Source: Gammaproteobacteria bacterium
GTDB lineage: Bacteria; Pseudomonadota; Gammaproteobacteria; JBBQDK01
DNA: 49,005 bases
Assembly (NCBI GenBank): GCA_041492115.1
Contig: JBGPWJ010000001.1
Coordinates: forward strand, 1-49,005
Direction: 5' to 3'
Position numbers and translations under genes: made by a program. The notes beneath the pieces are model-generated. The model saw only the letters and a list, made by a program, of their open reading frames with translations, ran no database searches and was not told where the DNA came from. Below are positions 1 to 18,268 of the stretch, piece after piece. Each line of letters starts with the position of its first letter. Positions within the stretch are counted from its first letter, which is position 1.

Positions 1-1
1 G

Positions 2-1570
2 GCGGCGTGCGCGGATTGTCATACCACCGTGGCGTGGTCGCCCTCACATTTTGATCACAGTGGTGTGAGCGGGAGCTGCGCGAGTTGCCATAACGGCAAC
101 ACGGCAACGGGCAAACCGACCAACCATGTAAATACTTCGGCGGCCTGCGATACCTGTCATACCACTAGTGCCTGGACACCGGCCGGCTTCGATCATTCCG
201 GTGTCAGCGGCAATTGTATCAGTTGTCATAACGGCAGCACCGCCACGGGCAAGTCGTCTGCGCACATCGCTACCTCCGCTACGTGCGAGACCTGCCACGT
301 CACCAGTTCGTGGACCAGCGTGCATTTCGATCACAGCGCCGCGATAGGCGGTTGTTCAAGTTGTCACAACGGCAAGAACGCCACCGGCAAATCGGCCACC
401 CATGTCGCTACCAGTGCGACCTGCGAAATTTGTCATAGCACCGCGGCTTGGAAACCCGCGAATTTTGATCACAGTGCCGTCACCGGCAGCTGTGCCAGCT
501 GCCACAATGGCACGACCGCCACCGGCAAGTCGGCCACACACGTTACGACCAGTGCAAGCTGCGATACCTGTCATAGCAGCACGGCCTGGAAACCGGCGCA
601 TTTCGATCACAATGCCGTCACCGGCAGTTGTGCCAGTTGCCACAACGGCACGACAGCAACCGGCAAACCGTCTACCCACGTTGCCACCAGTGCCGCGTGC
701 GATACCTGTCATAGCAGTACCACTTCGTGGGCAGCAGCGACCTTCGATCACAGTGCCGTAACCGGTGTCTGCAGCACCTGCCATAATGGTAAGACCGCCA
801 CCGGGAAGACCACCACGCATATTGCCAGTACCACGGTCTGCGATGACTGCCATACCACGGCGGCGTGGAAGCCGGCGCATGTCGACCACAGTGCAGTGAC
901 TGGAACCTGCGCCAGTTGCCACAATGGCAAGACCGCCACGGGAAAACCAACCACGCATGTGGCTACCAGTGCGGCGTGTGACACTTGTCATACCACGACA
1001 GCCTGGTTACCCGCGCGTTTCGATCACAGCGCGGTAACCGGCAGTTGTTCGAGCTGTCATAACGGCACAACCGCCACCGGCAAGCCGGTCACGCACATCG
1101 CCAGCACCAACATCTGCGACGACTGCCACACCAGCGTGGCATGGAAGCCGGCACGGATTGATCACAGTGCCGTCATAGGCACCTGTGCCAGCTGTCACAA
1201 CGGCACGAAGGCGACCGGAAAGCCCGCAACACATGTGCCTACCAGCGCCAGTTGCGATGATTGTCACACCACCACGGCATGGACACCGGCGCGATTCGAT
1301 CACAATGCGGTGACCGGTGCATGCACGTCCTGCCACAACGGCACTACCGCCACCGGTAAGTCAACCACGCACGTCAGCACGTCATCGGATTGCGGATCAT
1401 GCCACAGCACAGTGGCCTGGACGCCTGCCAATTTCGATCACAATGCCGTGACCGGTTCCTGTTCCACCTGCCACAACGGCGTGACCGCCACCGGCAAGAC
1501 GACCTCGCACTTCGTGACATCGCTGCAGTGCGACACCTGCCACACCACGACGCTGTGGACTCAGCTTACC
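2..1570 (+). repeat. In-frame tandem repeat, period 138 bp (46 codons), 11 full copies plus partial first copy
   Basis: The FDH/VDH/IDH register recurs at aa 8, 54, 100, 146, 192, 239, 285, 331, 377, 423 and 469 of the ORF-track protein. One unit carries a single extra codon. Confidence 0.85.
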
Positions 1571-1816
1571 TTCCGGCACAGTTCGGGAAGTTATCCGGGT
1601 GACCATGCCGGGCAACTTGCCTGTAACGCCTGCCACACAAGCAACAGCCAGACGGTGGTTTATCCCTACTCTGCCTATAAACCGGATTGTGCGGGCTGTC
1701 ACGCAAATAAATACAAGGCGGATGACCACAACAATGTGCCTGTCGCCACCAACAGGGATTGCGCAGGAAGCTGCCATAGACACCGCGTCACGGATGGCAG
1801 CTTTGGAGGGGGCTGA
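2..1816 (+). CDS. Very large multiheme c-type cytochrome made of tandem diheme modules (5' end cut by window edge; the ORF-track GTG at 29 is internal)
   Basis: The frame is open from nt 2 (AACADCHTTVAW...), so the gene continues upstream of the window. I count 25 CXXCH motifs plus one CX3CH (CAGSCH). Eleven consecutive 46-aa units have the form FDH-x6-CxSCHNG-x2-ATGK-x3-H(V/I)-x5-CxxCH-x3-W. This resembles the doubled/paired-CXXCH cytochrome family. Confidence 0.9.
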   Translation, partial: AACADCHTTVAWSPSHFDHSGVSGSCASCHNGNTATGKPTNHVNTSAACDTCHTTSAWTPAGFDHSGVSGNCISCHNGSTATGKSSAHIATSATCETCHVTSSWTSVHFDHSAAIGGCSSCHNGKNATGKSATHVATSATCEICHSTAAWKPANFDHSAVTGSCASCHNGTTATGKSATHVTTSASCDTCHSSTAWKPAHFDHNAVTGSCASCHNGTTATGKPSTHVATSAACDTCHSSTTSWAAATFDHSAVTGVCSTCHNGKTATGKTTTHIASTTVCDDCHTTAAWKPAHVDHSAVTGTCASCHNGKTATGKPTTHVATSAACDTCHTTTAWLPARFDHSAVTGSCSSCHNGTTATGKPVTHIASTNICDDCHTSVAWKPARIDHSAVIGTCASCHNGTKATGKPATHVPTSASCDDCHTTTAWTPARFDHNAVTGACTSCHNGTTATGKSTTHVSTSSDCGSCHSTVAWTPANFDHNAVTGSCSTCHNGVTATGKTTSHFVTSLQCDTCHTTTLWTQLTFRHSSGSYPGDHAGQLACNACHTSNSQTVVYPYSAYKPDCAGCHANKYKADDHNNVPVATNRDCAGSCHRHRVTDGSFGGG

Positions 1817-1849
1817 GATGCGGCAAACAATCAACGAGAGACAACTAAC

Positions 1850-4015
1850 ATGAGACGTCTGATGAATTTTGCTTGCGCGGCCGGCGTCGCGTGTGTCATG
1901 GCATGCATGCCGCTGCGGGTCAGCGCGCAAGCGGATGTGCTTGGCATCCTCGATACCCTGGACGTCAGCAGTCATGACGAGGGTGCCGCAGTGACGATCA
2001 AGTTCAATGTGCCCATACATTATGTGCGTCACTTTCCGGTCGATGAGGGTGATGTTGTGCAGATCACCGTGCAGGCGGTGGCGGTGGGTACGTTGAACGA
2101 GGAGCAACTGCAACGTCGCGAGTCACTCACCTGGACACCAAGCCGGGAGTTGCCACTCTCCGATGTGAGCTATGAAGGCGACATCAGCAATGGTCCGAAT
2201 CTGATCGTGCGCTTTCGTCATCCGGTAAAATACAAAGTAGAGGAGGGGGCCGATTCGCGCAGTATCATCGTCACGGTCGCAAAACCACAAGCGCTGCCCG
2301 AGGCGCCGGCTGCTCCGCATCCCGCCCTGCCAGCTGCACCCGCACCTGTGACTGCGCCGAGCATACCGATGCTGGAACCAGCGTCCGACAGCAAGGCCGA
2401 GGAATGGATGAACCAGGGCCGCCAAGCCATGACCGCGAACGATTATCCGCAGGCGATCCGTGTTTTCACCAAGGTGCTGCAGCATCCCGGACACAAGTAT
2501 CTGCCCGAGGCCAAGGAGCTGCTTGGTCTGGCGCGTGAACGCAATAAGCAGCTCGCGCATGCCAGGGCCGAATACGAGGAATACCTTAGACTGTATCCAC
2601 AGGGTGAGGGCGCCGAGCGTGTCCGCCAGCGTCTCAATGCGCTGCTCACGGCGCGCGAACCCGGCAAAGAGAAACTGCGCGGTGCCAAAGGCGGCGTACA
2701 AGCGGCGGCCGGCGGCATGATAGTTAACGGCAGCGTGTCGCAGTATTACCGACGCGATGTCAACAGCACCGACCAGACGGGTGCGGTCGTCACTCAGTCA
2801 TCGCTCACCAATTATCTGGATCTCGGCAGTCGCTGGCGCGGAGAACGCTATGATATGCGCAGCCAGTTCACCGGCAGTTACATTCACGACTTTCTACGCA
2901 ATGTTGCCAGCGGCGGCACCACCAGTGGTGCGCGCGTGAGCTCACTTTACGTGGATGCCAGCGACCGCCAGCATCAACTGTCTGCCAAGGTCGGTCGGCA
3001 GACGCGCAGCAGCGGCGGTGTGCTGGGGCGTTTCGATGGCGGCTTGTTCAGTGTCGGCGTCATGCCGAAGTGGAAGCTCAATGCCGTGGCCGGCGCACCC
3101 GTGGATCTGAGTTCGGATAACGGCATTCAGACCGATCACACATTGTACGGCGCGAGTTTGGATGGCGGCACCTTCGCCCAACATTGGGATACCAGCTTCT
3201 TCGCCATCCATCAGACCGTGAACGGCATTACCGACCGGACCGCGATTGGCTCGGAGTTACGCTACATCACACCCACTGCCTCGGTATTCACGCTGGCCGA
3301 CTATGACGTTTCCTATGCGCTGTTGAATACCGTGCTCACCTTGGCCAACTGGCAGTTTGAAGGTGGTTCCGGACTCAACATGGTGCTGGACTACCGTCTG
3401 AGCCCGACCCTTACCACCAGCAATGCGCTGCAGGGTCAACCCTTCGCCAGCATTAAGGATATGTTGGCAGCCATGAGTGAGTCCCAGGTGCGGCAATTGG
3501 CGGTTGATCGCACGGCGCGCTCCAAATCGGCAACGCTCGGCGGCAATGTGCCGCTTAACCAGAAATTGCAACTCTCCGGCGACATCACACTGTCGAATCT
3601 TGGCAGTATGCCCGCCTCCGGCGGTGTTGATGCCGTCGATGGTACAGGCAACGAGTATATCTACTCCGTGCAACTGATTGGCAGCAGTCTACTCAAGGAA
3701 GGCGATGTCTCGATTCTCGGTGTACGCTACTACGATGCCAAAGACTCCAGGACCAGTTCGCTGATTGTCAACACCCGCTACCCGGTAACCAACGACTGGC
3801 GCATCAACCCGCGTCTGCGCATCGATTACAAGACCAGCACCACCAGCGGCAATACCGTCACCTACAAACCTCAACTGCGGACCGATTACCGTTTGCGCAA
3901 GGAGCTTACCTTTGAACTGGAAGGAGGTCTTGAGTGGGATGATCAGAGTGGTGTCGCCGCAGCGCAGAACTCAAAAGGCTATTACTTCAGCCTCGGCTAT
4001 CGATGGAATTTTTAG
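1850..4015 (+). CDS. Outer-membrane protein: signal peptide, AMIN-like N-domain (tentative), Pro/Ala linker, TPR segment, large C-terminal beta-barrel
   Basis: The Sec signal is MRRLMNFACAAGVACVMACMPLRVSA-QA. A PA-rich linker (PEAPAAPHPALPAAPAPVTAPSIP) follows. The TPR-like helices read NDYPQAIRVFTKVL...AEYEEYLRLYPQGEGAERVRQRL. About 430 aa of alternating beta-strand pattern end in YYFSLGYRWNF, a terminal aromatic typical of OMPs. The gene starts 34 nt after the cytochrome stop. Confidence 0.8.
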   Translation: MRRLMNFACAAGVACVMACMPLRVSAQADVLGILDTLDVSSHDEGAAVTIKFNVPIHYVRHFPVDEGDVVQITVQAVAVGTLNEEQLQRRESLTWTPSRELPLSDVSYEGDISNGPNLIVRFRHPVKYKVEEGADSRSIIVTVAKPQALPEAPAAPHPALPAAPAPVTAPSIPMLEPASDSKAEEWMNQGRQAMTANDYPQAIRVFTKVLQHPGHKYLPEAKELLGLARERNKQLAHARAEYEEYLRLYPQGEGAERVRQRLNALLTAREPGKEKLRGAKGGVQAAAGGMIVNGSVSQYYRRDVNSTDQTGAVVTQSSLTNYLDLGSRWRGERYDMRSQFTGSYIHDFLRNVASGGTTSGARVSSLYVDASDRQHQLSAKVGRQTRSSGGVLGRFDGGLFSVGVMPKWKLNAVAGAPVDLSSDNGIQTDHTLYGASLDGGTFAQHWDTSFFAIHQTVNGITDRTAIGSELRYITPTASVFTLADYDVSYALLNTVLTLANWQFEGGSGLNMVLDYRLSPTLTTSNALQGQPFASIKDMLAAMSESQVRQLAVDRTARSKSATLGGNVPLNQKLQLSGDITLSNLGSMPASGGVDAVDGTGNEYIYSVQLIGSSLLKEGDVSILGVRYYDAKDSRTSSLIVNTRYPVTNDWRINPRLRIDYKTSTTSGNTVTYKPQLRTDYRLRKELTFELEGGLEWDDQSGVAAAQNSKGYYFSLGYRWNF

Positions 4016-4136
4016 GCCGGATTATCAGATGATCAACCACTGCCTGCGAACGAACGTAAACGTCAATTCAACCACACCCTACCAAGCATTTGGCTGAACG
4101 TTTGGCGTAACCATTTTCTCAAGCGAGGAGATAGGC

Positions 4137-4410
4137 ATGACGAGACGTTCACAAGTGCAATGGCGTGATTTGTTTCGGGCGCAGGAGGCCAGTGGACAGA
4201 GCGCCGCGGCGTTTTGTAGCGAGCAAGATGTGGTGTGATCGTTTTGCAAACCCGAGGCGACGGGCTCACAGAAAAGGCGCCGACCATTCCCTGTCCAGTG
4301 CAACCGACTCCCTGTCTCTAATCGCATTAATCGGTTCGTCTCTTCGTTGCAATCGTCAAGGAGGAGGGTTGACGGTTACGAAAGACCCGTGGATGAGGAG
4401 GTGGAGGTGA
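4137..4410 (+). pseudogene. Possible degraded IS66-family accessory (TnpA-like) gene remnant
   Basis: An RBS (GAGGAG) precedes an ATG at 4137, giving MTRRSQVQWRDLFRAQEASGQSAAAFCSEQDVV followed by a stop. The pattern RRS-x2-W-x2-L-x3-Q-x2-SG-x-S-x2-AFC resembles the N-termini of IS66 accessory proteins as I recall them. The rest is out of frame and unrecognisable. It sits at the GC drop. Confidence 0.3.
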
Positions 4411-4593
4411 ATTATGTAAGTATTTGTCCTACAAGGAGCGGGCGTTATGTCCTATGTCCATGTGTTAGCATAATGTTAATATGAATTCAGTAATATTCAG
4501 CAGGAATGAACTGTCAGTACTAAACTTATCTTATTCCGTGCTGGTAAGACATTTTCTAATATAACAACAAGTTACCGATGTGACTTAATATTT

Positions 4594-7500
4594 ATGCCGT
4601 ACGCCTTCGATCTTAATAAAGTTCGCCTTCCTCGTGGAGCCGAGGTTTATCCCCGTACGCGGTTGTTCCGTTGGCTGGATCAGGCCTGCGCAGCTAACCC
4701 TATCATATGGATAGCCGGTCCCCCAGGGTCGGGAAAAACCACGCTCATCAATAGTTACCTCGCTTATCGTAACTTAACGAAAATTACTCACATTATCCAT
4801 CACTCAGATGCAAGCCCAGGCAATTTGCATGTGGCACTCGGGCGGCACTTGCAGTTGGATATACGGCCGGAAGGCGACGAACCAGACCAATCATACGCTG
4901 CAAGAGACACATCATGGTCTGTGTGCGAGAGCAGGACAATAAGTGGGTTGTGTGCGATAGCTGCCGCGCAGGTGATAGTGTTCGATGGTTGCGAGGAAAT
5001 ATCTGATGAAGCGGAGACATTTCAGTATCTTAGTGATGATTTTGAGCGTTTGCCTGAAGGTCGCACGATAATCTTCATCAGTCGCAGCGGACCACCATCA
5101 GCGTTCACGCGCTGGTCTGTAGACCAGCGGATGGCCGTTCTTGGCTGGGATGAGTTGCGTCTGACGCCGGAAGAGTCCTTGGGGATTGCGCGTCTGCGCG
5201 GATGCAAATCACGTGAACACGGTGCCGTGATGCAGGCGCATGAACGGGCTTCGGGCTGGCTGGCCGGGTTACTACTGATGCTGCAGGAGATGACGCCTGG
5301 GCGCCAAAAACATTCGTCTCTCACGCGCAGAGCGGAAAAGAACATCCACGATTATTTCCAATCGGAAATATTCGGTCGTTCAGATGCCCGCACACAAGAA
5401 TTCCTCATGGCGACCGCGTTGCTTCAGGGCATGACGGTGCAAATGGTAGAACAGTTGACCGGTGACCAAGCCGCACAGAATATGTTGGCGGACTTGTGTC
5501 ATAAGCATTACTTCACTGATCGTCATGCGCTGCAAAGTAATCTATACCAATACCATCCTTTGTTCAGACACTTTCTCCTGACCCAGGCAAATGCCTGCCT
5601 GCCCCCTGACCAGTTGGCCGGCTTGCAACGTCGTGCGGCTGAATTACTGGAGGGTAATGGTCAGATCGAAGGCGCCGCAATGCAGTTGATAAATGCACAG
5701 GATTGGGAGGGGTTATTGCGGCTGGTCTCGCGTCACTTCGCGGGACTGCTCAGGCAAGGGCGGGCGCAGACCGTGGAATCATGGTTGCATGCGTTGCCGA
5801 CGACAATTATGACCGCCGCTCCCTGGGCGCTTTATTGGATGGGGGCATGCCATCTTACACACTGTGACCGTTCCGGGTGCGCGGATTTTTCCCGTGCGTA
5901 CACCCTGTTCGACAAAGAGGGCAACGCGGAGGGCATGTTGCTGTCCTGGTCGGGAACGGTCGACTCGCTGCTTGCGGCGCATGAGTATCACGAGTTGGAT
6001 CAATGGATCGACAAAATGGATGAGTACCTGGGAAGTAACAGGGACTTTCCATCGCAGGACTGTGAGCATCGGGTTGCGGCGAGTATGTTTTCGGCGCTTT
6101 TGTACAGGCAGCCGGGACGGTGCGATTTTGGCCAATGGCAAGAGCGGGTCAAGACCTGTATGCATCAATCCGGAGATGCCGCGCAGATCATCGCTATGAC
6201 GCGTCGTCTGCTGCAGTACCAGATATGGTTCGGCAGCGCCGCCGCTTGCGCAGTGATTATGGATACGGTACGAATCCTGGCACAACTTCCCGACCAGGCG
6301 CCAGATATATTGATTCAATGCGGGCTGGCCGAATGTGTCCATTTGTGGTTTACGGCCGCGTTCGAAGAGTGCCTGAAAACAGTAAGCAGTACTCTGGATG
6401 TCGCGCGGGAGTCAGGTTTGCATCGCTGGGATAATGAATTATATGGCCTTGGCGTGTCCGCCAGCATGGGTCTGTCGAACTATCCGGAAGCTCAGGACTG
6501 GCTGCAGAAGATGAGCATGACCCTCTATTTAAGGCCGCGCTATGAGACGGCGCAGTATCACTTCCTGTCGGCATGGTGCGAGATGGCTTGTGGTGATGCC
6601 GAGAGTGCATTTGAGCATGCGGATACGGCACGCAGGATGTTTGTCGCTTCCGGTGCGATCCTGGATCTGGCGCTAACCGATGTCGGGCTTGCGCAAATAA
6701 GCTTCGAGTGTGGTGATGCCGAAATTGCGGCAGCTCATCTTGATGCCGCTCGTGAACTCGCATCAATTACTGGGAGTTCCCATCTCGCATTTCTATGTCA
6801 TATCATCCATTGCTCTCTCGATGGTGGTAAAGGTGCAAGAAATAGCTCCCGCGACAGGCTGGCACATGCCTTTGCGCTTGGCAGTCAATATGATTATCAA
6901 AACACATTCTGGTGGCAGCGCAAGCTGGTCGCGCAAGTATCATCTCTTGCATTGTCATATGGCATTGAGGTTGATTATGTTCAGTCCCTTGTGCGGCGAC
7001 ATGAACTCACGTTGGACAATCCGCCATTAGCCATCGAGAATTGGCCTTGGCTGCTCAAGATTTATACGCTTGGACGTTTCTCGCTGCTGAAGTATGACCA
7101 ACCTTTATTGGCCTCGCGCAAGGCGCAGCATAAACCGCTGGAGTTGATCAAGGTACTGATAGCATTTGGAGGCCGAGAGGTGAGTGTCGATCTGCTGGCC
7201 TCAGTTCTGTGGCCAGATGCGGAAGGTGATGCCGGGAAAAATGCCTTTGACATCACCTTGCATCGCCTCAGAAAAATGATTGGCGCGGATAAGGTTCTGA
7301 TCCTGAGGGATGGCAGGCTTACGCTGGATAGCCGCTATTGCTGGGTTGACACTTGGGCTCTGGAACGCATGATCGGCCAGGTCGACGTGGCGTTGCGGAG
7401 TGACCGCCAGGATGCCGATGTCATTATGCAGATGTCTTCTGCAATTCTTGCGCTTTACCAGGGTCATTACCTTGGCAAGGAATATTCTCAGCCGTGGTCG

Positions 7501-7794
7501 TTGAACCTTCGCGAGCGGTTGAGGAGTAAGTATCTGCGCCATGTCACGGATATCGCGCATTACCTGGAAAAAAATCAGCGTTGGGAAGATGCCATTGTGT
7601 ATTACCAGAAAGGATTGGAGGTCGATGACCTTGCTGAGCAGTTCTACCAGTCGTTCATGATTTGTTATCAACAGCTCGGGCGTCGCAGTGAAGCGCTGGC
7701 GGTTTACCGCCGCTGCCGAAGTGCGCTGTCAATTATCCTGGGCATCGAGCCATCCTCTGTAACCGAGTCTATTCGAAAAAGTCTGCTTTCCTGA
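4594..7794 (+). CDS. STAND-type (MalT-like) P-loop ATPase regulator with C-terminal OmpR-type winged helix plus BTAD (SARP-type) output
   Basis: Walker A GPPGSGKTT lies near aa 43. A long helical sensor region follows. The C-terminus matches the trans_reg_C plus BTAD pattern: LKIYTLGRFSLL...KPLELIKVLIAFGGREVSVDLLASVLWPD...ITLHRLRKMIG...ALYQGHYLGKEY..W...RERLRSKYL...AEQFYQSFMICYQQLGRRSEALAVYRRCRSALSIILGIEPS. Confidence 0.85.
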   Translation: MPYAFDLNKVRLPRGAEVYPRTRLFRWLDQACAANPIIWIAGPPGSGKTTLINSYLAYRNLTKITHIIHHSDASPGNLHVALGRHLQLDIRPEGDEPDQSYAARDTSWSVCESRTISGLCAIAAAQVIVFDGCEEISDEAETFQYLSDDFERLPEGRTIIFISRSGPPSAFTRWSVDQRMAVLGWDELRLTPEESLGIARLRGCKSREHGAVMQAHERASGWLAGLLLMLQEMTPGRQKHSSLTRRAEKNIHDYFQSEIFGRSDARTQEFLMATALLQGMTVQMVEQLTGDQAAQNMLADLCHKHYFTDRHALQSNLYQYHPLFRHFLLTQANACLPPDQLAGLQRRAAELLEGNGQIEGAAMQLINAQDWEGLLRLVSRHFAGLLRQGRAQTVESWLHALPTTIMTAAPWALYWMGACHLTHCDRSGCADFSRAYTLFDKEGNAEGMLLSWSGTVDSLLAAHEYHELDQWIDKMDEYLGSNRDFPSQDCEHRVAASMFSALLYRQPGRCDFGQWQERVKTCMHQSGDAAQIIAMTRRLLQYQIWFGSAAACAVIMDTVRILAQLPDQAPDILIQCGLAECVHLWFTAAFEECLKTVSSTLDVARESGLHRWDNELYGLGVSASMGLSNYPEAQDWLQKMSMTLYLRPRYETAQYHFLSAWCEMACGDAESAFEHADTARRMFVASGAILDLALTDVGLAQISFECGDAEIAAAHLDAARELASITGSSHLAFLCHIIHCSLDGGKGARNSSRDRLAHAFALGSQYDYQNTFWWQRKLVAQVSSLALSYGIEVDYVQSLVRRHELTLDNPPLAIENWPWLLKIYTLGRFSLLKYDQPLLASRKAQHKPLELIKVLIAFGGREVSVDLLASVLWPDAEGDAGKNAFDITLHRLRKMIGADKVLILRDGRLTLDSRYCWVDTWALERMIGQVDVALRSDRQDADVIMQMSSAILALYQGHYLGKEYSQPWSLNLRERLRSKYLRHVTDIAHYLEKNQRWEDAIVYYQKGLEVDDLAEQFYQSFMICYQQLGRRSEALAVYRRCRSALSIILGIEPSSVTESIRKSLLS

Positions 7795-8039
7795 GTTTCT
7801 TCAGTAACACCACCGCCTGTAGTTAGTCAGATTAAAACCACTCTCGCCAGTGATACGGCTGGAGTTGCCGTGCCTGTCATTCCGCACTTAGTCATTTCCT
7901 TTCAAATAGTCGCGAATCAAATCACACATTTTATCTGTCACAGCTTCTTGAGCATCGCTCAATCCGAATTTACATGGTGTTTACGGTCGAAGTAATTTGC
8001 CGCACTTTGATACTTGCCTGCCTTCATCAATATTCGAAT

Positions 8040-8058
8040 CTGTAAGTCATCTGTAAGT
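8040..8058 (+). promoter_or_regulatory. Exact direct repeat CTGTAAGT-N3-CTGTAAGT (11-bp phasing), candidate SARP-type activator site
   Basis: CTGTAAGT occurs at 8040-8047 and again at 8051-8058, about 62 bp upstream of the ATG at 8120. The heptamer TGTAAGT also occurs at 4415-4421 upstream of the STAND-SARP gene, followed by TGT-initiated heptamers at 4425, 4448, 4455 and 4461. Confidence 0.35.
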
Positions 8059-8119
8059 GCTTTGAAGGCAATCTACCCATGAGAAAAAATATTTATCAAT
8101 AAAACTAATAGGTGGATCA

Positions 8120-8326
8120 ATGGAAAATTACATCGTGCGTGTCTATCGGCGAGACATTCAAAACACATGCGGAGTCACTGGCCTTGTAGAAAACGTTGAG
8201 AACGAAGAGAAACTGGTGTTCCACAGTCTCGAAGAGCTTTGTTCAATTCTTTCGATAAATCCTGTGAAGGCGCAAGACGAGCAACATTTTGACGCTGTGC
8301 AAGTGGGGCCTCGGCAAAGAAGTTAG
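8120..8326 (+). CDS. Small hypothetical protein (68 aa)
   Basis: An RBS (AGGTGG) lies 5 nt before the ATG. The N-terminal IVRVYRRD...G.VE....E...F.SLEEL motif looks like a conserved small-protein family, but I cannot name it. Confidence 0.45.
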   Translation: MENYIVRVYRRDIQNTCGVTGLVENVENEEKLVFHSLEELCSILSINPVKAQDEQHFDAVQVGPRQRS

Positions 8327-8440
8327 ACGAAAATTTAATTATGCAATACGGCCATGTAGTTATTTGATTATCTGATCATGGCGGCTGGCATATAAAAATA
8401 CTGATTTTTTTAAAGATAACTAATTCATAAAGGTGATCAA

Positions 8441-9190
8441 ATGAATAAGAAAATATGCAATGCGCTGGTAGGAGTAGCGGTAGGTCTTGCGGTAAGTGGC
8501 GCGGCAGTGGCAAGCTCTGTGAGTTACTACCTGGATAAGTCAAATACGACCAGCCTGTTCCCTGACAACACCGATTATTTGCAAGTGACAATCGATGATC
8601 TTGGCCTTGCAAATGACAAGATATACTTCACTGTCACGCCGCTTGCCCCGCTGACATCAATCGCCGGGTCCAATTTCGGGATAGACAAATTCGCATTCAA
8701 TGGGCCGACGCTTGCTCAGTCAAATATCGGGCTGGCGGGGTGGTCATTGAGTAATAACAAGAACGTCTCCATTTTCGGCAAGTTCAACAACCTCCTTAAG
8801 GGTGGCGGTAATAGTCGCAGTAATCCGCTGACATTCTCTATAAGCGCCGGCAACGATACGATAGCCAGTTATGCGGCTGTACTATCGAATGGCTCTGCAT
8901 TCTTTGCTGCGCATGTGGCGGGTTTCGATATTGCCTGCAGCAATGGCGGATCTGATGATGAGAAATTTAACAAAAATATCAGAAGGAGCCACTCCTCGTT
9001 CATTCACCATTCAACATCGCATGAAGGTGACGGCGGCAATTGTGAACGTTCCACAAGTGCCTATTTCGGTGGGTCAACAAGTCGTCTTGTGCCGCTGACA
9101 AGTGCAGTGCCGGTGCCGGCAGCGGCTTGGCTGTTCGCAAGTGGCTTGATTGGCATGGTTTGTGTGTCACGTCGCAGCCGCACGAAATGA
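8441..9190 (+). CDS. PEP-CTERM / VPLPA-CTERM-type secreted protein (putative exosortase substrate)
   Basis: The N-terminal signal peptide is MNKKICNALVGVAVGLAVSGAAVA. The C-terminal sorting tail is VPVPAAAWLFASGLIGMVCVSRRSRTK (a Pro motif, a TM helix and a basic cluster). An RBS (AAGGTGA) is present. Confidence 0.85.
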   Translation: MNKKICNALVGVAVGLAVSGAAVASSVSYYLDKSNTTSLFPDNTDYLQVTIDDLGLANDKIYFTVTPLAPLTSIAGSNFGIDKFAFNGPTLAQSNIGLAGWSLSNNKNVSIFGKFNNLLKGGGNSRSNPLTFSISAGNDTIASYAAVLSNGSAFFAAHVAGFDIACSNGGSDDEKFNKNIRRSHSSFIHHSTSHEGDGGNCERSTSAYFGGSTSRLVPLTSAVPVPAAAWLFASGLIGMVCVSRRSRTK

Positions 9191-9388
9191 TGCGTCGTGA
9201 ATTGTATGGGTGTTAATCACACATAAGTCGGCAAGTAGCTTCTGTTAAGGAAACCCCTGTTATATAGGCTCTAAACATCGGCAGGCGTCATCTTACTTGC
9301 TGACTACTGAGTAAGTATTCCATGTGAACTTGTGCGTCATTAACAGTCATTAATCTATCATTATTGCTATTTAAAATGAGTTGCAAAA

Positions 9389-9557
9389 ATGAAATTCAAT
9401 AAACATATCACGGCAATGGCATTAGGGTTGGGATTTAGTGTTGAGGCCTGCCGGTAACTCTCCCGGCCTGGTGCCTCTCAGCAAGGTTCCTGCCGCTGCT
9501 TGGTTGTTTGACAGTGGTCTGGTTGGGTTGGCACGTCGTAAAAGTGGGAGCGCCTGA
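9389..9557 (+). pseudogene. Frameshifted mini PEP-CTERM gene remnant (signal peptide and sorting tail in different frames)
   Basis: Nt 9389-9457 encode MKFNKHITAMALGLGFSVEACR followed by a stop. A different frame (open from 9426 to the TGA at 9555-9557) encodes ...SPGLVPLSKVPAAAWLFDSGLVGLARRKSGSA, a clear PEP-CTERM-like tail. Confidence 0.5.
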
Positions 9558-9635
9558 AAGAGATGTTCGGGCGCGTCGTGGATCGTAAATAACCTTAATT
9601 ATTATTTATAACTAGCAGAATCCAAGGAGAGACCA

Positions 9636-10355
9636 ATGAAGATTAAAAATATGCTGTTAAAAATGCTTGCCGGTAGCGCCCTGCTGCTGGGTTCTTCAGC
9701 TGTACCCGCGGCAATCATCACGCTCAATGGGACGAACGTCAACTTTACCTATGACGATTCCCTTCTGGGTCTCTTTGGGGCGCCGACGGTGTCGGGAGAT
9801 ACCATTTATTTTACGCCCACGAACATCAAGGCGATCTCATTAAATGGCGCTGGATCGGTCATTGCAAGCTCAACCGTCAATGTTGTAGTAACCGCTCATC
9901 AAGGTGTCAATATGGGCGCCTTGAGCCTGCAAGAACGGGGTGACTATTCGTTGAGCGGTGAGGGTAGCTCAGTAGATCTGGGTGGGCAGTTGCGAGCTTT
10001 TGACATCAGCAATCCTCTGAACGTTGAAGACTCTTCCTTCATTACTACGAGTTCTGATTTAACTTTAAATGACGGTAAGTTCCATAACTGGGTTGGAACA
10101 GCTGACATTGATCTCAGCACCGCACTGTGGGTGAATACAACGTCAATCAATATGACGCTCGAGAATGTGCTGACCGCGACAACAATCGATTTCCCTTCCA
10201 CGGCATTTATTGAGAAAAAGTTCGCGGGAGTCGTCGTTACCGTGGGTGGAGTACCCCCGAGCGAAGTCCCTGTACCTGTGCCGGCTGCTGCTTGGTTGTT
10301 TGGTTCAGGCCTGATGGGCCTGGCGGGTGTGGCGAGACGTCGCGGTAAGGCTTAA
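9636..10355 (+). CDS. PEP-CTERM / VPLPA-CTERM-type secreted protein (putative exosortase substrate)
   Basis: An RBS (AAGGAGA) precedes the start. The signal peptide is MKIKNMLLKMLAGSALLLGSSAVPA. The C-terminal tail is VPVPVPAAAWLFGSGLMGLAGVARRRGKA. Confidence 0.85.
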   Translation: MKIKNMLLKMLAGSALLLGSSAVPAAIITLNGTNVNFTYDDSLLGLFGAPTVSGDTIYFTPTNIKAISLNGAGSVIASSTVNVVVTAHQGVNMGALSLQERGDYSLSGEGSSVDLGGQLRAFDISNPLNVEDSSFITTSSDLTLNDGKFHNWVGTADIDLSTALWVNTTSINMTLENVLTATTIDFPSTAFIEKKFAGVVVTVGGVPPSEVPVPVPAAAWLFGSGLMGLAGVARRRGKA

Positions 10356-10416
10356 TCCGATAGCTGTAAATTGGACCGTGAAATATTCATAAAGTGGTCT
10401 TCAAGAAAGTCATAAC

Positions 10417-10495
10417 AAGGAAGCAGGACAGCAGTGCTGCCCCACCATCTCAGACAGGATACTGAAGGATCAGGACAAGGATTAAGGAACAAGGG
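10417..10495 (+). other. GGA-rich purine tract (seven A/C-AGGA motifs plus AAGGG), candidate CsrA/RsmA-binding RNA segment or leader
   Basis: AGGA occurs at 10418, 10425, 10456, 10466, 10472, 10478 and 10485. Five of these fall within 33 nt: cAGGAtactgaAGGAtcAGGAcaAGGAttaAGGAacaAGGG. A strong plus-strand terminator lies at 10663-10690. Confidence 0.3.
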
Positions 10496-10536
10496 TAACA
10501 GTACGTTGAAACCTGATTAACAGAGGAGGTTGCGCA

Positions 10537-10710
10537 ATGAACAAAAGGCTTGGTCTTATTATGTCATCAGCAGTATCGATGGCTTTTATAGTCGATTCCG
10601 CAACCGCGAACACAGTAGACCTCACGACTGCGGGTAGCTGCGGTGCTATCAACGGTTCCCAGGGGAGCCCGTTGGGTTCCCTTTTTTATTGTTTCGAGGT
10701 CCCCCATTAA
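10537..10710 (+). CDS. Small ORF (57 aa) with signal-peptide-like N-terminus; doubtful or truncated
   Basis: A strong RBS (GAGGAGG) lies at 10524-10530 and the ATG at 10537. The product begins MNKRLGLIMSSAVSMAFIVDSATA. An intrinsic terminator lies inside the 3' end of the ORF, which argues against a full-length functional gene. Confidence 0.3.
   Translation: MNKRLGLIMSSAVSMAFIVDSATANTVDLTTAGSCGAINGSQGSPLGSLFYCFEVPH
10663..10690 (+). terminator. Rho-independent terminator (plus strand)
   Basis: The stem is GGGAGCCC-gtt-GGGTTCCC (8 bp including one G-U), immediately followed by TTTTTTATT. Confidence 0.6.
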
Positions 10711-10718
10711 AGTTACAT

Positions 10719-11732
10719 TCAGCTTTTCGCAGCCAGCCCTAAATTGACAATACGCTGGATGAACTGCTGATAGTTGACCCCGGCTCTTTCTGCAGACCTT
10801 GATGCCTCTTCATAACTGGCGATGCCGGGATTCGGATTGGCTTCCAGTACGAAAAGAGTGCCATCCGGACGCAGGCGCAAATCGATGCGGATATAACCGT
10901 TGAGATCCAGGACGCGGCAGATGCGCCGGCAGGTCTTGACGATGGTTTCCGGCATCTTGTCCGGCAGGTTGCGGGCGAACTGGAAATTGATGCCCCAACG
11001 CTCGCGATAATCGCCATCCCACTTAACCTTGTAAGTGGCCATGCGGGGCGCGCCTTCCTCGACTTGGTCGAAGGTCAGTTCGCGGATCGGGAAGGCCTGC
11101 AGACGCGTATTGCCAACGAGTGTGACGTAGAGTTCCCGGCCGACGATGTACTGTTCGGCGATGGCATCGCTTTGCGTGGTCTCGTGAATGATGCGAATGC
11201 GTTCCTTGAGTTGGTCATCGTTCTCCACGAACGATGCCTGTGCGATGCCAACGGAGCCCTCCTCGGTGAGCGACTTGACGATCAGCGGATATGGCAGGTT
11301 GGGGTGGGGTTTGTAGACGCGATTGCGCGGAAAGACCGCAAATTCCGGCGCGTGGATGTGGTGGTACTTGAGCAGTTTCTTGGACAGAGCCTTGTCGCGC
11401 GCCAGCAGCAGCCCGCGCGGTTTGCAGCCGGTGTAGGGGACGCGCATCATCTCCAGATAGCTGACGACGTAATAATCGAAATCGCCGCGGCCGGCAAATT
11501 CCTCCAGCAGGTTGAAGACGATGTGCGGCTGCCACTCCTCCAGAGTTTGGCGGATCGGCGCCAGTTCATCGTAGGCGCCAACCACGCGCACCTCATGACC
11601 CAGTGCCAGCAGGGCCTGCTTCACGTCGTATTCGGTATCACAGTCATCCAGCCGCGGATCATCAGGGCCGGTGACATCTTCAGGCGGGACCAGACTGCTG
11701 TGCACCAGCAACATGACGCGCAATTTTCTCAT
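10719..11732 (-). CDS. ATP-grasp enzyme, D-alanine--D-alanine ligase-like family
   Basis: The N-terminus MRKLRVMLLVHSSLVPPED is typical of this family, and the ATP-grasp C-terminal motif is YIRIDLRLRPDGTLFVLEANPNPG. There is a 4-nt start/stop overlap with the upstream gene. Confidence 0.85.
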   Translation of the reverse strand: MRKLRVMLLVHSSLVPPEDVTGPDDPRLDDCDTEYDVKQALLALGHEVRVVGAYDELAPIRQTLEEWQPHIVFNLLEEFAGRGDFDYYVVSYLEMMRVPYTGCKPRGLLLARDKALSKKLLKYHHIHAPEFAVFPRNRVYKPHPNLPYPLIVKSLTEEGSVGIAQASFVENDDQLKERIRIIHETTQSDAIAEQYIVGRELYVTLVGNTRLQAFPIRELTFDQVEEGAPRMATYKVKWDGDYRERWGINFQFARNLPDKMPETIVKTCRRICRVLDLNGYIRIDLRLRPDGTLFVLEANPNPGIASYEEASRSAERAGVNYQQFIQRIVNLGLAAKS

Positions 11733-12922
11733 AGGGCGACGTGAAAGCCTCCGTTGTTGAGATGATTCATGACCAGCATGGTGGCGCAGGCGACAGTATC
11801 CAGCTTCAGCCGCGGGTCATCCCGCGCCACGTGCAGCTTGAGACGTTCGCTGCGCTGGATCAGAACCTGGATGATCTGATCGACGCGATAGCGATATTCA
11901 TAACTCCAGCGTGAGATGATCTCGCTGATCTCCGGACGCAGGCGTTGCAGATAACGGGCCGCCGTTTCATGGCGGCGGTGCTCGGCCTGATTGGAGAACA
12001 GCCGCAGCATGTGCCGGTCGTAGAAATCAGGAGTCTCGACGATGTAGGTGGCCTGCTTCTCGGCATAATATTCCCCCAGCGTCATGCGCAGATTGCTGAC
12101 CGGCTCAACAAATTTGCGCGAGCGCACACGCGCCGGCTGGTCATGGATCTCCGTCATCAGCGCATCGACAAAGCGCAGTTTCTTCAGCGCCGACCAGCCG
12201 CGATAGCGCTGCCGCCAGTCGGAATTGGGCTTCAGCCAGACTGCAAAGGTCTCCGCCCAGTCTTCATGCGGATGGCTCTGCGCATACCAGCCGTTCAGGT
12301 GTACGACGAAGCGCTTGCTGTACGGCTTGGGCAGATAGGTCTCGGGATAGGTCTGGGTGGGACTGCCAAAGTGTTCGCGCCATTGCTTGCGGCGCTGCAC
12401 TTGGTAGGCATTGGCGATGGCGTGGCCGGTTTCGTGACGCAGCAGTTTCATGCACCAGTCGCGGTTGCCGCCCTCGACATCGAGCATGTGAGCCTTTTCC
12501 AATTTCTTCAGACGCGGGTGTGCGAGAAAAAAAGGAATCGCCACACCGGGCACGCCGTCCGGGCTGAACCACTCGCTGGACAACCAGAAGTGCGGACGGA
12601 ACCGGATGTCACGCCGTTCCAGTTCGGCGTTGAGTTGCAGGATGCAGTCTTCAAGTTCGCTGCCGGGGATCTTGAGATCAAGATCGCAGATGCGCCATTT
12701 GAGCAATGCGGCATCGGACAGCTGCGGCCACTGGCGCCGCGGGTTCTGTACTGTGCGTCGGGTAGCTATGATCTGATCTCCGTACAGGCCGCCGTGCGCG
12801 GACTGGTACGGGCATAGTACCGGTAAAAATTCCGGATAGGAACCCGGCCCTGCGCCGGCGCTGTCAGTGGAAGATGCCGAAGGTCTTGCTGTGTTGTGCG
12901 CGGTGCTGTTCGAGCAGATCAA
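11729..12922 (-). CDS. Putative zinc-binding metallopeptidase-like protein (HExxH); start uncertain
   Basis: The HExxH motif is LLRHETGHAIANAY. The conserved SDAALLKWRICDLDLKI...FRPHFWLSSEWFSPDGVPGVAIPFFLAHPRL segment matches the family that is usually adjacent to an ATP-grasp gene. The only ATG (12922) overlaps the upstream gene by 59 nt. Confidence 0.75.
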   Translation of the reverse strand: MICSNSTAHNTARPSASSTDSAGAGPGSYPEFLPVLCPYQSAHGGLYGDQIIATRRTVQNPRRQWPQLSDAALLKWRICDLDLKIPGSELEDCILQLNAELERRDIRFRPHFWLSSEWFSPDGVPGVAIPFFLAHPRLKKLEKAHMLDVEGGNRDWCMKLLRHETGHAIANAYQVQRRKQWREHFGSPTQTYPETYLPKPYSKRFVVHLNGWYAQSHPHEDWAETFAVWLKPNSDWRQRYRGWSALKKLRFVDALMTEIHDQPARVRSRKFVEPVSNLRMTLGEYYAEKQATYIVETPDFYDRHMLRLFSNQAEHRRHETAARYLQRLRPEISEIISRWSYEYRYRVDQIIQVLIQRSERLKLHVARDDPRLKLDTVACATMLVMNHLNNGGFHVAL

Positions 12923-18167: not shown

Positions 18168-18179
18168 TATAAGTAGACG

Positions 18180-18268
18180 TCCCCTCTCCCTTCGGGAGAG
18201 GGACAGGGTGAGGGGTGTTGATCGCTTATTACCTCCCTCACCCCAGCCCTCTCCCGGAGGGAGAGGGA
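18180..18268. repeat. Two REP-like elements in inverted orientation (copies 2 and 3) in the ccmG-ccmH spacer
   Basis: Nt 18180-18215 read tcccctctcccttcgggagagggacagggtgagggg. Nt 18234-18268 read tccctcaccccagccctctcccggagggagaggga. The flanking arms are mutually complementary. Confidence 0.65.

What the first reader, a model, noticed from the sequence alone, without database searches (positions are those of the whole stretch)
1..4015. Tandem-module giant multiheme cytochrome paired with a TPR/beta-barrel outer-membrane protein: candidate uncharacterised electron conduit
**Seen.**
- At least 605 codons of a cytochrome continue beyond the left edge of the window.
- The visible part is 11 near-identical 46-aa modules (138-bp DNA period).
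- Each module has two CXXCH motifs plus two further invariant His (the T-H-V/I and F-D-H positions). That gives four His per two hemes, as expected for bis-His ligation, at about 23 residues per heme. I count 25 CXXCH plus one CX3CH in the visible part.
- Thirty-four nt downstream starts a 721-aa protein with a Sec signal, a Pro/Ala linker, TPR helices and a ~430-aa barrel ending in aromatic F.

**Inference.**
- The pairing resembles a porin-cytochrome unit, but the barrel is unrelated in layout to the MtrB gene at 34732. MtrB has no TPR domain and carries a CXXC motif; this protein has TPR and no CXXC.
- The cytochrome looks like a modular heme wire grown by tandem duplication.
- I do not recognise this pair as a described system.
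Basis: partly seen in the sequence, partly recalled or inferred. Interest (0 to 1): 0.8.

Follow-up and report, generated by a model that had tools for sequence, protein, structure and literature searches.

The report
PCC3 porin-cytochrome gene cluster, partial
The left edge of the window holds the last two genes of a "PCC3" cluster, a predicted electron conduit made of giant multiheme cytochromes and an outer-membrane barrel that was described from genomes in 2017 and is widespread but has never been tested experimentally, so the find is real but not new.

Summary
Window 2-1816 encodes the C-terminal 604 aa of a multiheme cytochrome. It has 25 CXXCH plus 1 CX3CH motifs and eleven 46-aa two-heme modules. 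These modules are 49-80% identical to one another, so they are not "near-identical". Window 1850-4015 encodes a 721-aa outer-membrane protein: signal peptide, N-terminal beta-sandwich, Pro/Ala linker, TPR domain and a predicted 22-strand barrel.

The pair is not an undescribed system. It fits the published definition of the PCC3 cluster (He et al. 2017; Sideroxydans ES-1 Slit_1446-1449).
- In relatives 83-86% identical, the two genes are preceded by a 21-heme cytochrome built of 7 triheme repeats.
- Before that lies a ~320-aa, five-helix membrane protein carrying SGXXG and two WX3HX13H motifs.
- Among the 80 best related loci, 68 of 72 informative ones have a multiheme cytochrome gene directly upstream of the barrel gene. 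33 of 38 have all four genes in the same order.
- The barrel matches no polysaccharide-export family and is unrelated to the window's MtrB.

The conduit function is inferred, not shown; as of 2026 the literature still calls PCC3 uncharacterised. I could not align the window proteins directly to the type PCC3 proteins.

Possibly unreported details:
- The barrel protein's periplasmic N-terminal domain is swapped among homologues (AMIN, SPOR, SH3).
- The variable cytochrome has a conserved C-terminal domain.
- The variable cytochrome has no lipoprotein signal.

The parts
2..1816 (+). 3' part of the gene for the variable ('extracellular') PCC3 multiheme cytochrome. It gives the C-terminal 604 aa plus the stop codon; the N-terminus lies beyond the left edge of the window.
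   Evidence: Open frame. 25 CXXCH plus 1 CX3CH; T, A, S and G make up 308 of 604 residues; no Met. Pfam Cytochrome_C7 and Paired_CXXCH_1 match. Aligns at 68% identity to aa 145-801 of the complete 802-aa orthologue in L002.
8..1528 (+). Tandem array of eleven two-heme modules (46 aa / 138 bp each), covering aa 3-509.
   Evidence: Tandem Repeats Finder period 138/276 bp. Module boundaries and 23-aa heme spacing. Module identity 49-80%, with invariant CXXCH x2, DH and tH positions.
1529..1813 (+). Non-repeat C-terminal domain of the cytochrome (aa 510-604), with 3 CXXCH plus the CX3CH motif.
   Evidence: Conserved in the cytochrome directly upstream of the barrel gene in most related loci (phmmer E = 1e-20 to 1e-48). 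47 of 54 sequences keep a CX3CH near the C-terminus, and the conserved columns were mapped.
1817..1849 (+). 33-nt intergenic spacer. Both genes are on the same strand and in the same frame, so co-transcription is likely (inferred).
   Evidence: Sequence read. No terminator-like site on the + strand between the genes.
1850..4015 (+). Gene for the PCC3 outer-membrane protein (721 aa).
   Evidence: ORF. 566 homologues found. 517 relatives in species-representative genomes. AlphaFold2 model.
1850..1927 (+). Signal peptide (aa 1-26, with a ...RVSA/QA cleavage site read by eye).
   Evidence: Sequence. Model shows helix 2-18 followed by a disordered stretch. No signal-peptide predictor was available.
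1949..2281 (+). Periplasmic N-terminal beta-sandwich domain (aa 34-144).
   Evidence: Strands 34-144 with pLDDT about 70-87. No Pfam hit. Homologues carry AMIN, SPOR or SPOR+SH3 domains upstream of the TPR instead.
2285..2383 (+). Pro/Ala-rich disordered linker (aa 146-178).
   Evidence: pLDDT below 50 over aa 149-174. Sequence.
2387..2650 (+). TPR domain (aa 180-267), similar to BamD/YfiO and CpoB.
   Evidence: Pfam TPR_2, TPR_16 and YfiO at aa 181-263. NCBIfam BamD and YbgF matches below cut-off. PDB profile hits to BamD and CpoB. Five helices in the model.
2714..4012 (+). Beta-barrel domain (aa 289-721): 22 predicted strands, a helical insert at aa 523-553, and a C-terminal Phe.
   Evidence: AlphaFold2 strands. 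Foldseek finds only generic barrels with TM <= 0.33 normalised to the query. No Pfam family at E <= 0.01.
4594..7794 (+). 1066-aa regulator with a MalT-like NTPase N-terminus and a BTAD/SARP C-terminus. Its link to the cluster is tentative.
   Evidence: Pfam and NCBIfam matches. Found downstream of the barrel gene only in the closest relatives L001-L004.

Best explanation
Window 1-4015 is the distal half of a four-gene PCC3 cluster ('porin-cytochrome c complex 3', He et al. 2017).

**Gene order**
In close relatives the order is:
1. a five-helix inner-membrane protein;
2. a 21-heme periplasmic cytochrome;
3. a cytochrome with a variable number of hemes;
4. the outer-membrane barrel protein.

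The window starts inside gene 3 and contains all of gene 4.

**Proposed mechanism (inferred, not shown)**
- The inner-membrane protein binds two b-type hemes through its two WX3HX13H motifs and exchanges electrons with the quinone pool.
- The 21-heme cytochrome (seven triheme repeats) bridges the periplasm.
- The barrel, held in place by its periplasmic TPR and N-terminal domains, sheaths the junction across the outer membrane.
- The bis-His cytochrome, rich in Thr, Ser, Ala and Gly at about 23 residues per heme, is docked by its conserved C-terminal domain. Its tandem two-heme modules act as a wire whose length changes by gain and loss of modules.

The direction of electron flow and the natural partner (Fe(II), minerals or another donor or acceptor) are unknown.
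For: **Shown here**
- Synteny in close relatives. In L002 (barrel 83% identical) and L003 (86%), the barrel gene is preceded by an 802/883-aa cytochrome with 31/33 CXXCH and a Sec signal. Before that come a 522-aa cytochrome with 21 CXXCH and a ~320-aa membrane protein.
- Synteny across 80 loci spanning Gammaproteobacteria, Nitrospirota, Desulfuromonadales, Thermodesulfobacteriota, Binatia, Hyphomicrobiales and Omnitrophota. 68 of 72 loci have an MHC ORF directly upstream on the same strand. 33 of 38 loci with at least 7 kb of upstream sequence have all four genes in order.
- Membrane protein. All 36 of 36 carry two WX3HX13H motifs and an SGXXG motif. Five hydrophobic helices are predicted in L002. 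These are the published PCC3/PCC4 signatures.
- Second cytochrome. It has 21 hemes in 27 of 35 loci and 24 in 3. It shows seven repeats of about 67 aa at 24.9 aa per heme. The published Riftia-symbiont PCC3 protein has 7 repeats of about 66 aa, 21 hemes and a ratio of 26.
- Window cytochrome. It is T/A/S/G-rich, repetitive and has about 23 aa per heme, as published for the PCC3 'extracellular' MHC. The Riftia-symbiont protein shows the same spacing of about 23 aa between repeats.
- Gene order. ES-1 Slit_1446-1449 runs IMP, cyt-c_p, cyt-c_e, porin, the same as here.
- Barrel. 22 strands are predicted; 22 transmembrane regions were reported for the L. cholodnii PCC3 porin.
- Context. The window also carries cytochrome c maturation genes, a CymA-like NapC/NirT protein and MtrCAB.
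Against: - I could not align the window proteins directly to the type PCC3 proteins (Slit_0867-0870, Slit_1446-1449, L. cholodnii). Result lists are capped at 80 or 120 rows and were filled by unnamed metagenome sequences.
- Genes 1 and 2 are not in the window. Their presence upstream is inferred from relatives.
- No experiment supports electron transfer, complex formation or surface exposure. In ES-1 the clusters were downregulated on Fe(II), and the 'extracellular' cytochrome was not detected in proteomes.
- The variable cytochrome has a plain Sec signal and no lipobox in 30 of 31 complete loci. This differs from MtrC, so how it would reach the cell surface is unexplained.
- The membrane-protein model (pLDDT 72) has no fold match in the PDB. 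The di-heme-b assignment therefore rests on motifs alone.
Confidence: 0.85

Rival explanations
1. Both cytochromes stay in the periplasm. The system would be a periplasmic electron store (capacitor) or wire, anchored to the outer membrane and peptidoglycan by the barrel protein. It would not be a conduit that crosses the outer membrane.
For: - The variable cytochrome has only a Sec signal and no lipobox.
- Its 'extracellular' label in the literature comes from localisation predictors.
- Barrel homologues carry the peptidoglycan-binding domains AMIN, SPOR and SH3, plus a periplasmic TPR.
- Hoover et al. raise a capacitor role themselves.
- The ES-1 'extracellular' cytochrome was never detected in proteomes.
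Against: - A conserved 22-strand barrel is more than an anchor needs.
- The strict adjacency of the cytochrome gene to the barrel gene, together with a conserved C-terminal cytochrome domain, resembles MtrA-MtrB logic.
- Variable wire length (7 to 89 hemes) has no obvious use within a periplasm of fixed width.
Confidence: 0.15
2. The barrel protein is a TPR-barrel exporter of the BcsC/PgaA/PelB/AlgK-AlgE kind for a polysaccharide or another polymer, and it lies next to the cytochrome gene by chance.
For: - The layout of a periplasmic TPR followed by a C-terminal barrel is shared with those exporters (established knowledge).
- AlgE appears among the Foldseek hits (rank 13).
- PEP-CTERM/VPLPA-CTERM proteins lie 4-6 kb downstream.
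Against: - The whole protein and the barrel domain alone match no Pfam or NCBIfam exporter family.
- The AlgE match is generic (TM 0.26 normalised to the query, 0.38 to the target), like dozens of unrelated barrels.
- No synthase genes flank it.
- 68 of 72 related loci across many phyla keep a multiheme cytochrome gene directly upstream.
Confidence: 0.03
3. The barrel is a secretion or assembly pore, comparable to an usher. It would thread the linear cytochrome out of the cell, and possibly assemble it into a longer surface fibre, rather than acting as a static sheath.
For: - The top Foldseek hits are the FimD and PapC ushers.
- The cytochrome lacks a lipobox and needs some export route.
- Its thin, low-complexity chain with small side chains could pass through a pore.
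Against: - The usher matches are weak (TM about 0.3, 9% identity).
- Covalently bound hemes make the mature protein bulky.
- No chaperone-like gene is present in the cluster.
- There is no evidence of polymerisation.
Confidence: 0.07

Closest known systems
PCC3 gene cluster (He et al. 2017, Front Microbiol 8:1584; e.g. Sideroxydans lithotrophicus ES-1 Slit_1446-1449 and Slit_0867-0870, Leptothrix cholodnii SP-6, Riftia endosymbiont)
   Same: - Four-gene content and order.
- A 21-heme cytochrome built of seven triheme repeats of about 67 aa.
- A repetitive, T/S/A/G-rich cytochrome with a variable heme count, at about 23-25 aa per heme.
- A ~300-aa, five-helix membrane protein with SGXXG and two WX3HX13H motifs.
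- An outer-membrane barrel encoded last.

   Different: No defining feature differs. This copy belongs to an unnamed gammaproteobacterial MAG lineage, with the nearest barrels 72-87% identical and the rest 50% or less.

The PCC3 papers I read and a full-text search (PCC3 + 'tetratricopeptide') do not mention three details:
- the barrel protein's N-terminal domain plus TPR architecture;
- the swapping of AMIN, SPOR and SH3 domains among homologues;
- the conserved C-terminal domain of the variable cytochrome.
MtrCAB / MtoAB / PioAB porin-cytochrome complexes
   Same: - The logic is the same: a barrel gene next to a multiheme cytochrome gene.
- The cytochrome modules match the 'doubled CXXCH' domain found in MtrA/DmsE.
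- There is a weak PDB match to an MtrA chain, 6r2q_A. That 6R2Q is the MtrCAB complex is from my own knowledge.
   Different: - The barrel has no MtrB_PioB Pfam match and no BLASTP similarity to the window's MtrB.
- The barrel has 22 predicted strands; MtrB has 26 (my knowledge).
- The barrel has no CXXC motif.
- The barrel has additional TPR and N-terminal periplasmic domains.
- The cytochromes carry 21 and about 30 or more hemes rather than 10.
- The outer cytochrome is not a lipoprotein.
- PCC3 has its own dedicated inner-membrane protein rather than CymA.
PCC4 cluster (He et al. 2017)
   Same: The inner-membrane protein has the same motif pattern: five transmembrane helices, SGXXG and two WX3HX13H motifs.
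   Different: PCC4 has three periplasmic cytochromes with 4, 5 and 10 hemes and no extracellular cytochrome. That does not match the 21-heme plus roughly 30-heme pair found here.
TPR-barrel polymer exporters (BcsC, PgaA, PelB, AlgK/AlgE)
   Same: A periplasmic TPR followed by a C-terminal outer-membrane barrel.
   Different: - No sequence-family match.
- Only generic fold similarity.
- A short TPR of about 90 aa.
- Conserved neighbours are cytochromes, not synthases.

Membership tests
PCC3 (He et al. 2017) | [quoted passage not shown] | tested here: met
   The barrel gene starts 33 nt after the cytochrome's stop codon. A 22-strand barrel is predicted. The adjacency holds in 68 of 72 related loci.
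PCC3 (He et al. 2017) | The 'extracellular' MHC has many hemes, is low-complexity and T/S/A/G-rich, is built of repeats each carrying at least one heme, and has a low aa:heme ratio (published examples 26 and 30). | tested here: met
   26 heme motifs in the 604 visible aa (23 aa per heme). T 106, A 81, S 74, G 47. Eleven two-heme modules. Orthologues have 31 and 33 CXXCH.
PCC3 (He et al. 2017) | The periplasmic MHC has about 21 (21/24/27) hemes and is encoded in the same cluster. | tested here: met
   This gene is not in the window because it lies off the left edge. It is present directly upstream in the relatives L002 and L003 (83-86% identical barrels), with 21 CXXCH in seven repeats of about 67 aa. 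It has 21 hemes in 27 and 24 hemes in 3 of 35 related loci.
PCC3 (He et al. 2017) | The conserved inner-membrane protein is about 300 aa, has five transmembrane helices, SGXXG on TM4 and WX3HX13H on TM3 and TM5. | tested here: met
   This gene is not in the window. All 36 of 36 membrane proteins in related loci have both motif types in the expected order. Five hydrophobic helices are predicted in L002.
PCC3 (He et al. 2017) | Gene order is IMP, periplasmic MHC, extracellular MHC, porin, as in ES-1 Slit_1446-1449. | tested here: met
   The same order is found in 33 of 38 loci with at least 7 kb of upstream sequence.
PCC3 (He et al. 2017) | Significant sequence similarity to the type PCC3 proteins (S. 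lithotrophicus ES-1, L. cholodnii SP-6). | not testable with these tools
   The type sequences could not be retrieved. Hit lists are capped at 80 or 120 rows and were filled by unnamed MAG and metagenome proteins. The paper supplements hold no sequences.
PCC3 (He et al. 2017) | The components form a complex that spans the envelope and transfers electrons. | not testable with these tools
   No member has been tested experimentally. The literature still describes PCC3 as predicted or uncharacterised in 2025-2026.
MtrCAB / MtoAB / PioAB | The barrel belongs to the MtrB/PioB family (PF11854, TIGR03509). | tested here: not met
   No MtrB_PioB match. BLASTP against the window's own MtrB gives E = 1.0, whereas that MtrB scores 575 bits against PF11854.
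MtrCAB / MtoAB / PioAB | The cytochrome is a DmsE/MtrA-family decaheme or an OmcA/MtrC-family decaheme. | tested here: not met
   TIGR03508 scores 114.5 bits against a cut-off of 192.2, and only through repeated partial matches. There is no TIGR03507 match.
PCC4 (He et al. 2017) | [quoted passage not shown] | tested here: not met
   Relatives carry a 21-heme cytochrome plus a cytochrome of about 31-33 hemes.
TPR-barrel polysaccharide exporters (BcsC/PgaA/PelB) | Sequence-family match of the barrel or TPR region, and neighbouring synthase genes. | tested here: not met
   Pfam and NCBIfam give only generic TPR, BamD and YbgF hits. The barrel domain alone gives nothing at E <= 0.01. The neighbours are cytochromes and a regulator.

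The most novel reading that the evidence does not exclude
The PCC3 'porin' may not be a simple porin. It may be a three-part scaffold made of a barrel, a TPR and an interchangeable peptidoglycan-binding or beta-sandwich N-terminal domain (AMIN, SPOR, SH3 or the window's unassigned fold). Such a scaffold would fix a periplasm-spanning 21-heme wire to the cell wall. It would also dock a non-lipoprotein outer cytochrome through that cytochrome's conserved C-terminal domain of 3 CXXCH plus 1 CX3CH motifs. The outer wire's length would then be tuned in evolution by gain and loss of 46-aa two-heme modules (7 to 89 hemes seen across loci). This would be an electron-conduit architecture distinct from MtrCAB. 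The PCC3 papers I could search describe none of it at this level.
Probability: 0.35. Interest if true: 0.6.

Novelty: new member of a known kind. Interest (0 to 1): 0.38.

Why it matters
PCC3 is one of the most widespread predicted extracellular-electron-transfer systems, yet it has no experimental support.
- The barrel family has at least 517 relatives among species-representative genomes.
- The membrane-protein family has more than 3,500 clusters at 90% identity.
- These span many phyla and habitats.

If PCC3 is a true conduit, a large and unrecognised share of bacteria could exchange electrons with minerals or with partner cells.

This window adds a member that sits on the same 49-kb stretch as MtrCAB, a CymA-like protein and the cytochrome maturation genes. 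It also supplies anatomical details that give concrete targets for mutagenesis and structural work: the TPR and N-terminal domains of the barrel protein, the conserved C-terminal domain of the variable cytochrome, and the absence of a lipobox.

It does not reveal a new kind of system.

Tried and rejected
- **Extending the contig leftwards.** An exact-protein lookup of the window's barrel found nothing. The near-identical public contig L001 matches window 65-10829 at 99.72% identity, but it breaks inside the same repeat array. I used the relatives L002 and L003 instead.
- **Direct link to named PCC3 proteins.**
  - The barrel search, the genome scan and the membrane-protein search returned almost only unnamed metagenome or MAG sequences.
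  - The supplements of He 2017 and Hoover 2023 contain no sequences.
  - A tblastn search of plasmids found nothing.
- **Solved structures.**
  - A profile search with the barrel alignment hit only TPR proteins such as BamD and CpoB.
  - The cytochrome gave only weak MtrA/MtrC-like hits.
  - Foldseek on the barrel model gave only generic barrels.
  - Foldseek on the membrane-protein model gave no hit at E <= 0.001. The proposed resemblance to ferric-reductase or cytochrome b proteins could therefore not be supported structurally.
- **N-terminal domain.** A Pfam scan of the window's N-terminal domain alone gave no hit, so it cannot be called AMIN.
- **Polysaccharide-exporter and MtrB readings.** Both were considered and rejected.
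- **Terminator and promoter scan of 1700-4700.** It gave nothing above shuffle expectation.
- **Long antisense ORFs** across the repeat region (for example 356-991 on the minus strand). I take these to be by-products of G+C-rich repetitive coding sequence.

Full report
**1. The observation**

Reading frame 2 of the + strand is open from base 2 to a stop at 1814-1816, giving 604 aa, and it continues beyond the left edge of the window.
- It holds 25 CXXCH and one CX3CH (CAGSCH). Consecutive motifs are 23 aa apart, with one spacing of 24 aa.
- Tandem Repeats Finder reports periods of 138 and 276 bp over 144-1548, with 67-75% matches.
- Splitting at every second motif gives eleven modules, ten of 46 aa and one of 47 aa. 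The consensus is C..CH.t.aW.pa.fDHsav.G.C.sCHNG.tATGK..tHv.tsa. The two extra His positions are invariant.
- The visible protein has 56 His, 52 Cys and no Met. Bis-His ligation is therefore the only simple option.
- The modules are clearly homologous but not near-identical. Protein identity averages 65% (range 49-80%) and DNA identity averages 68%.

After a 33-nt spacer, a 721-aa ORF starts at 1850.
- Pfam sees only TPR/YfiO-type matches at aa 181-263.
- An AlphaFold2 model built on 25 homologues (mean pLDDT 79) shows five parts:
  - a signal helix;
  - a disordered Pro/Ala linker;
  - five TPR-like helices at aa 180-267;
  - a 22-strand barrel at aa 289-720, with a helical insert at aa 523-553.
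- The mature protein has no Cys.

**2. What it is**

The barrel protein has 566 detectable homologues in the large protein collection. It has at least 517 relatives among species-representative genomes. Only nine proteins are 72-87% identical; the rest are 50% identical or less.

A public contig, L001, matches window 65-10829 at 99.72% identity. It breaks in the same cytochrome gene.

Two relatives give the full context: L002 (barrel 83% identical) and L003 (86%). The gene order there is as follows:
1. a ~320-aa membrane protein;
2. a 522-aa cytochrome with 21 CXXCH and a signal peptide;
3. an 802- or 883-aa repeat cytochrome with 31 or 33 CXXCH and a signal peptide;
4. the barrel.

The window cytochrome aligns to aa 145-801 of the L002 protein at 68% identity. 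The L002 stretch is 54 residues longer than the window's. That size would fit one extra 46-aa module plus a short C-terminal insert, but I did not inspect the gaps.

I scanned all 80 related loci for ORFs with at least 4 CXXCH. I also searched them by phmmer with each of the four proteins.
- 68 of 72 loci with at least 600 bp of upstream sequence have a multiheme cytochrome ORF ending just before the barrel gene on the same strand.
- 33 of 38 loci with at least 7 kb of upstream sequence have all four genes in the same order.
- The second cytochrome has 21 hemes in 27 of 35 cases and 24 in three.
- The cytochrome next to the barrel varies from 7 to 89 CXXCH. Its last ~100 aa are nevertheless conserved (E = 1e-20 to 1e-48), and the CX3CH motif is kept in 47 of 54 sequences.
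- All 36 membrane proteins carry two WX3HX13H motifs with an SGXXG between them. L002's shows five hydrophobic helices.

**3. Comparison with what is known**

This is the anatomy published as "PCC3" by He et al. 2017 (PMC5566968). Their definition comprises:
- a porin;
- an 'extracellular' MHC (median 34 hemes, rich in T/S/A/G, built of repeats);
- a periplasmic MHC (median 21 hemes);
- a ~300-aa inner-membrane protein with five helices, SGXXG on TM4 and WX3HX13H on TM3 and TM5.

Further points of agreement:
- Their supplement reports, for the Riftia endosymbiont, a 21-heme protein with seven repeats of about 66 aa. It also reports an 'extracellular' protein whose repeats recur about every 23 aa. 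For L. cholodnii it reports a porin with 22 predicted transmembrane regions.
- In L002 the 21 hemes fall into seven units of about 67 aa, at 24.9 aa per heme.
- ES-1's second cluster, Slit_1446-1449, is listed as IMP, cyt-c_p, cyt-c_e, porin. That is the same order as here.
- Hoover et al. 2023 report 21, 24 or 27 hemes for the periplasmic subunit and 10-35 for the extracellular one in Gallionellaceae.

PCC4, with cytochromes of 4, 5 and 10 hemes, does not fit. Neither does the Mtr family:
- there is no MtrB_PioB match;
- BLASTP against the window's own MtrB gives E = 1.0;
- the cytochrome scores below the cut-offs for the DmsE and GSU2203 families.

The one test I could not run is a direct alignment to the type proteins. 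I could not retrieve them, because the capped hit lists were filled by unnamed metagenome sequences and the paper supplements carry no sequences.

**4. Rivals**

*A polysaccharide exporter of the BcsC/PgaA/PelB type.* This is excluded as far as sequence can tell.
- No family match for the whole protein or for the barrel domain alone.
- Foldseek finds only generic barrels, led by FimD at TM about 0.3.
- No synthase genes are nearby.
- The conserved neighbours are cytochromes.

*A purely periplasmic role for both cytochromes.* The system could be an electron store or an anchored wire. This remains open.
- The variable cytochrome has a Sec signal but no lipobox in 30 of 31 complete loci.
- Its extracellular label rests on localisation predictors.
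- It was not detected in ES-1 proteomes.
- ES-1 downregulated both clusters on Fe(II).

*An usher-like export pore.* This rests only on weak fold hits.

**5. Mechanism**

The following are shown:
- the gene linkage;
- the heme-motif anatomy;
- His-only ligation capacity;
- the barrel, TPR and N-terminal domain architecture;
- the conserved C-terminal domain;
- variation in module copy number.

The following are inferred:
- the membrane protein binds two b-type hemes and couples to quinones (motifs only; its model has no PDB fold match);
- the 21-heme protein spans the periplasm;
- the barrel sheaths the junction between the cytochromes;
- the TPR docks a cytochrome;
- the N-terminal domain contacts peptidoglycan, since homologues carry AMIN, SPOR or SPOR+SH3 domains there;
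- the repeat cytochrome acts as the outward wire.

The direction of electron flow and the substrate are unknown. The literature still calls PCC3 predicted or uncharacterised in 2025-2026.

**6. Verdict**

This is a real and well-conserved system. It has, however, been described and named since 2017 and is very common, so this copy is a new member of a known kind.

The points that may be new are anatomical:
- the three-domain 'porin' with interchangeable N-terminal domains;
- the conserved C-terminal domain of the variable cytochrome;
- the absence of a lipoprotein signal on that cytochrome.

A full-text search for PCC3 together with 'tetratricopeptide' found no relevant paper.

**7. Context in the window**

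The 49-kb window is dense in electron-transfer genes:
- a MalT/SARP-like regulator (4594-7794), conserved next to the cluster only in the closest relatives;
- cytochrome c maturation genes, system I (about 16375-23716, minus strand);
- a Crp/Fnr-type regulator (23782-24540, minus strand);
- a second MtrC/OmcA-like protein (25285-28272, minus strand);
- a NapC/NirT (CymA-like) protein (29149-29775, minus strand);
- a diheme cytochrome c (29840-30472, minus strand);
- MtrC, MtrA and MtrB (30763-36816).

Noticed in passing
window 30763-36816 (+), 25285-28272 (-), 29149-30472 (-): There is a complete MtrC-MtrA-MtrB cluster (TIGR03507 470 bits, TIGR03508 305 bits, PF11854 575 bits). Nearby are a second 995-aa MtrC/OmcA-like cytochrome, a NapC/NirT (CymA-like) tetraheme protein and a diheme cytochrome c. 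The organism therefore carries two different porin-cytochrome systems within 49 kb.
   Followed up: partly
window 16375-24540 (-): A system I cytochrome c maturation cluster (CcmA, B, C, E, F, a thioredoxin-like CcmG, CcmH and CcmI/CycH) is followed by a Crp/Fnr-type regulator. It lies between the PCC3 and Mtr clusters.
   Followed up: partly
window 1-64; L001; 30 of the 80 related loci: Both assemblies of this organism end inside the repeat cytochrome gene. In addition, 30 of the 80 related loci have a contig end inside the multiheme cytochrome gene upstream of the barrel. The 138-bp tandem modules evidently break short-read assemblies, so heme counts for these proteins in databases are often underestimates.
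   Followed up: yes
window 4594-7794 (+): A 1066-aa regulator has a MalT-like NTPase N-terminus and a BTAD/SARP C-terminus. It sits downstream of the barrel gene only in the closest relatives (L001-L004), so it may be a lineage-specific regulator of the cluster.
   Followed up: partly
window 8441-9190 and 9636-10355 (+): Two small secreted proteins carry VPLPA-CTERM/PEP-CTERM sorting tails, which implies an exosortase system in this organism. They have no obvious link to the cytochromes.
   Followed up: no
window 12864-14780 (-): A 638-aa protein contains many ankyrin repeats plus Sel1 repeats, which is unusual for a free-living bacterium. It sits next to a Fer4/pyridine-nucleotide-disulfide oxidoreductase gene (14767-16077, minus strand).
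   Followed up: no
L037 9974-12889: A barrel-family member (971-aa ORF, Gammaproteobacteria bin397 chromosome) has no ORF with at least 4 CXXCH within 10 kb on either side. It is the one clear case found of this barrel without a cytochrome partner.
   Followed up: partly
L073 289-9669 and 12433-20703; L064 3440-9904; L047 2670-8153: Some clusters have extreme cytochromes. In a Desulfuromonas MAG the barrel gene is flanked by two giant ORFs with at least 76 and at least 72 CXXCH. An Omnitrophota MAG has a 2155-aa ORF with 89 CXXCH. A Sedimenticolaceae chromosome has an 1828-aa ORF with 73 CXXCH.
   Followed up: no
L002 7559-9967 and 30 other loci (N-termini of the variable cytochrome): After a plain Sec signal with no lipobox, the variable cytochromes start with a conserved FDHxxTGFPLxGAH motif. 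This motif also recurs in the repeats of the 21-heme protein, which suggests the two cytochromes share ancestry at their N-terminal ends.
   Followed up: partly
window 44-2113 (-) and 402-761 (+): Several long ORFs lie antisense to, or out of frame with, the repeat cytochrome gene (for example 356-991 on the minus strand, 211 aa). They are Gly/Arg/Ala-rich and look like by-products of G+C-rich repetitive coding sequence rather than genes.
   Followed up: no
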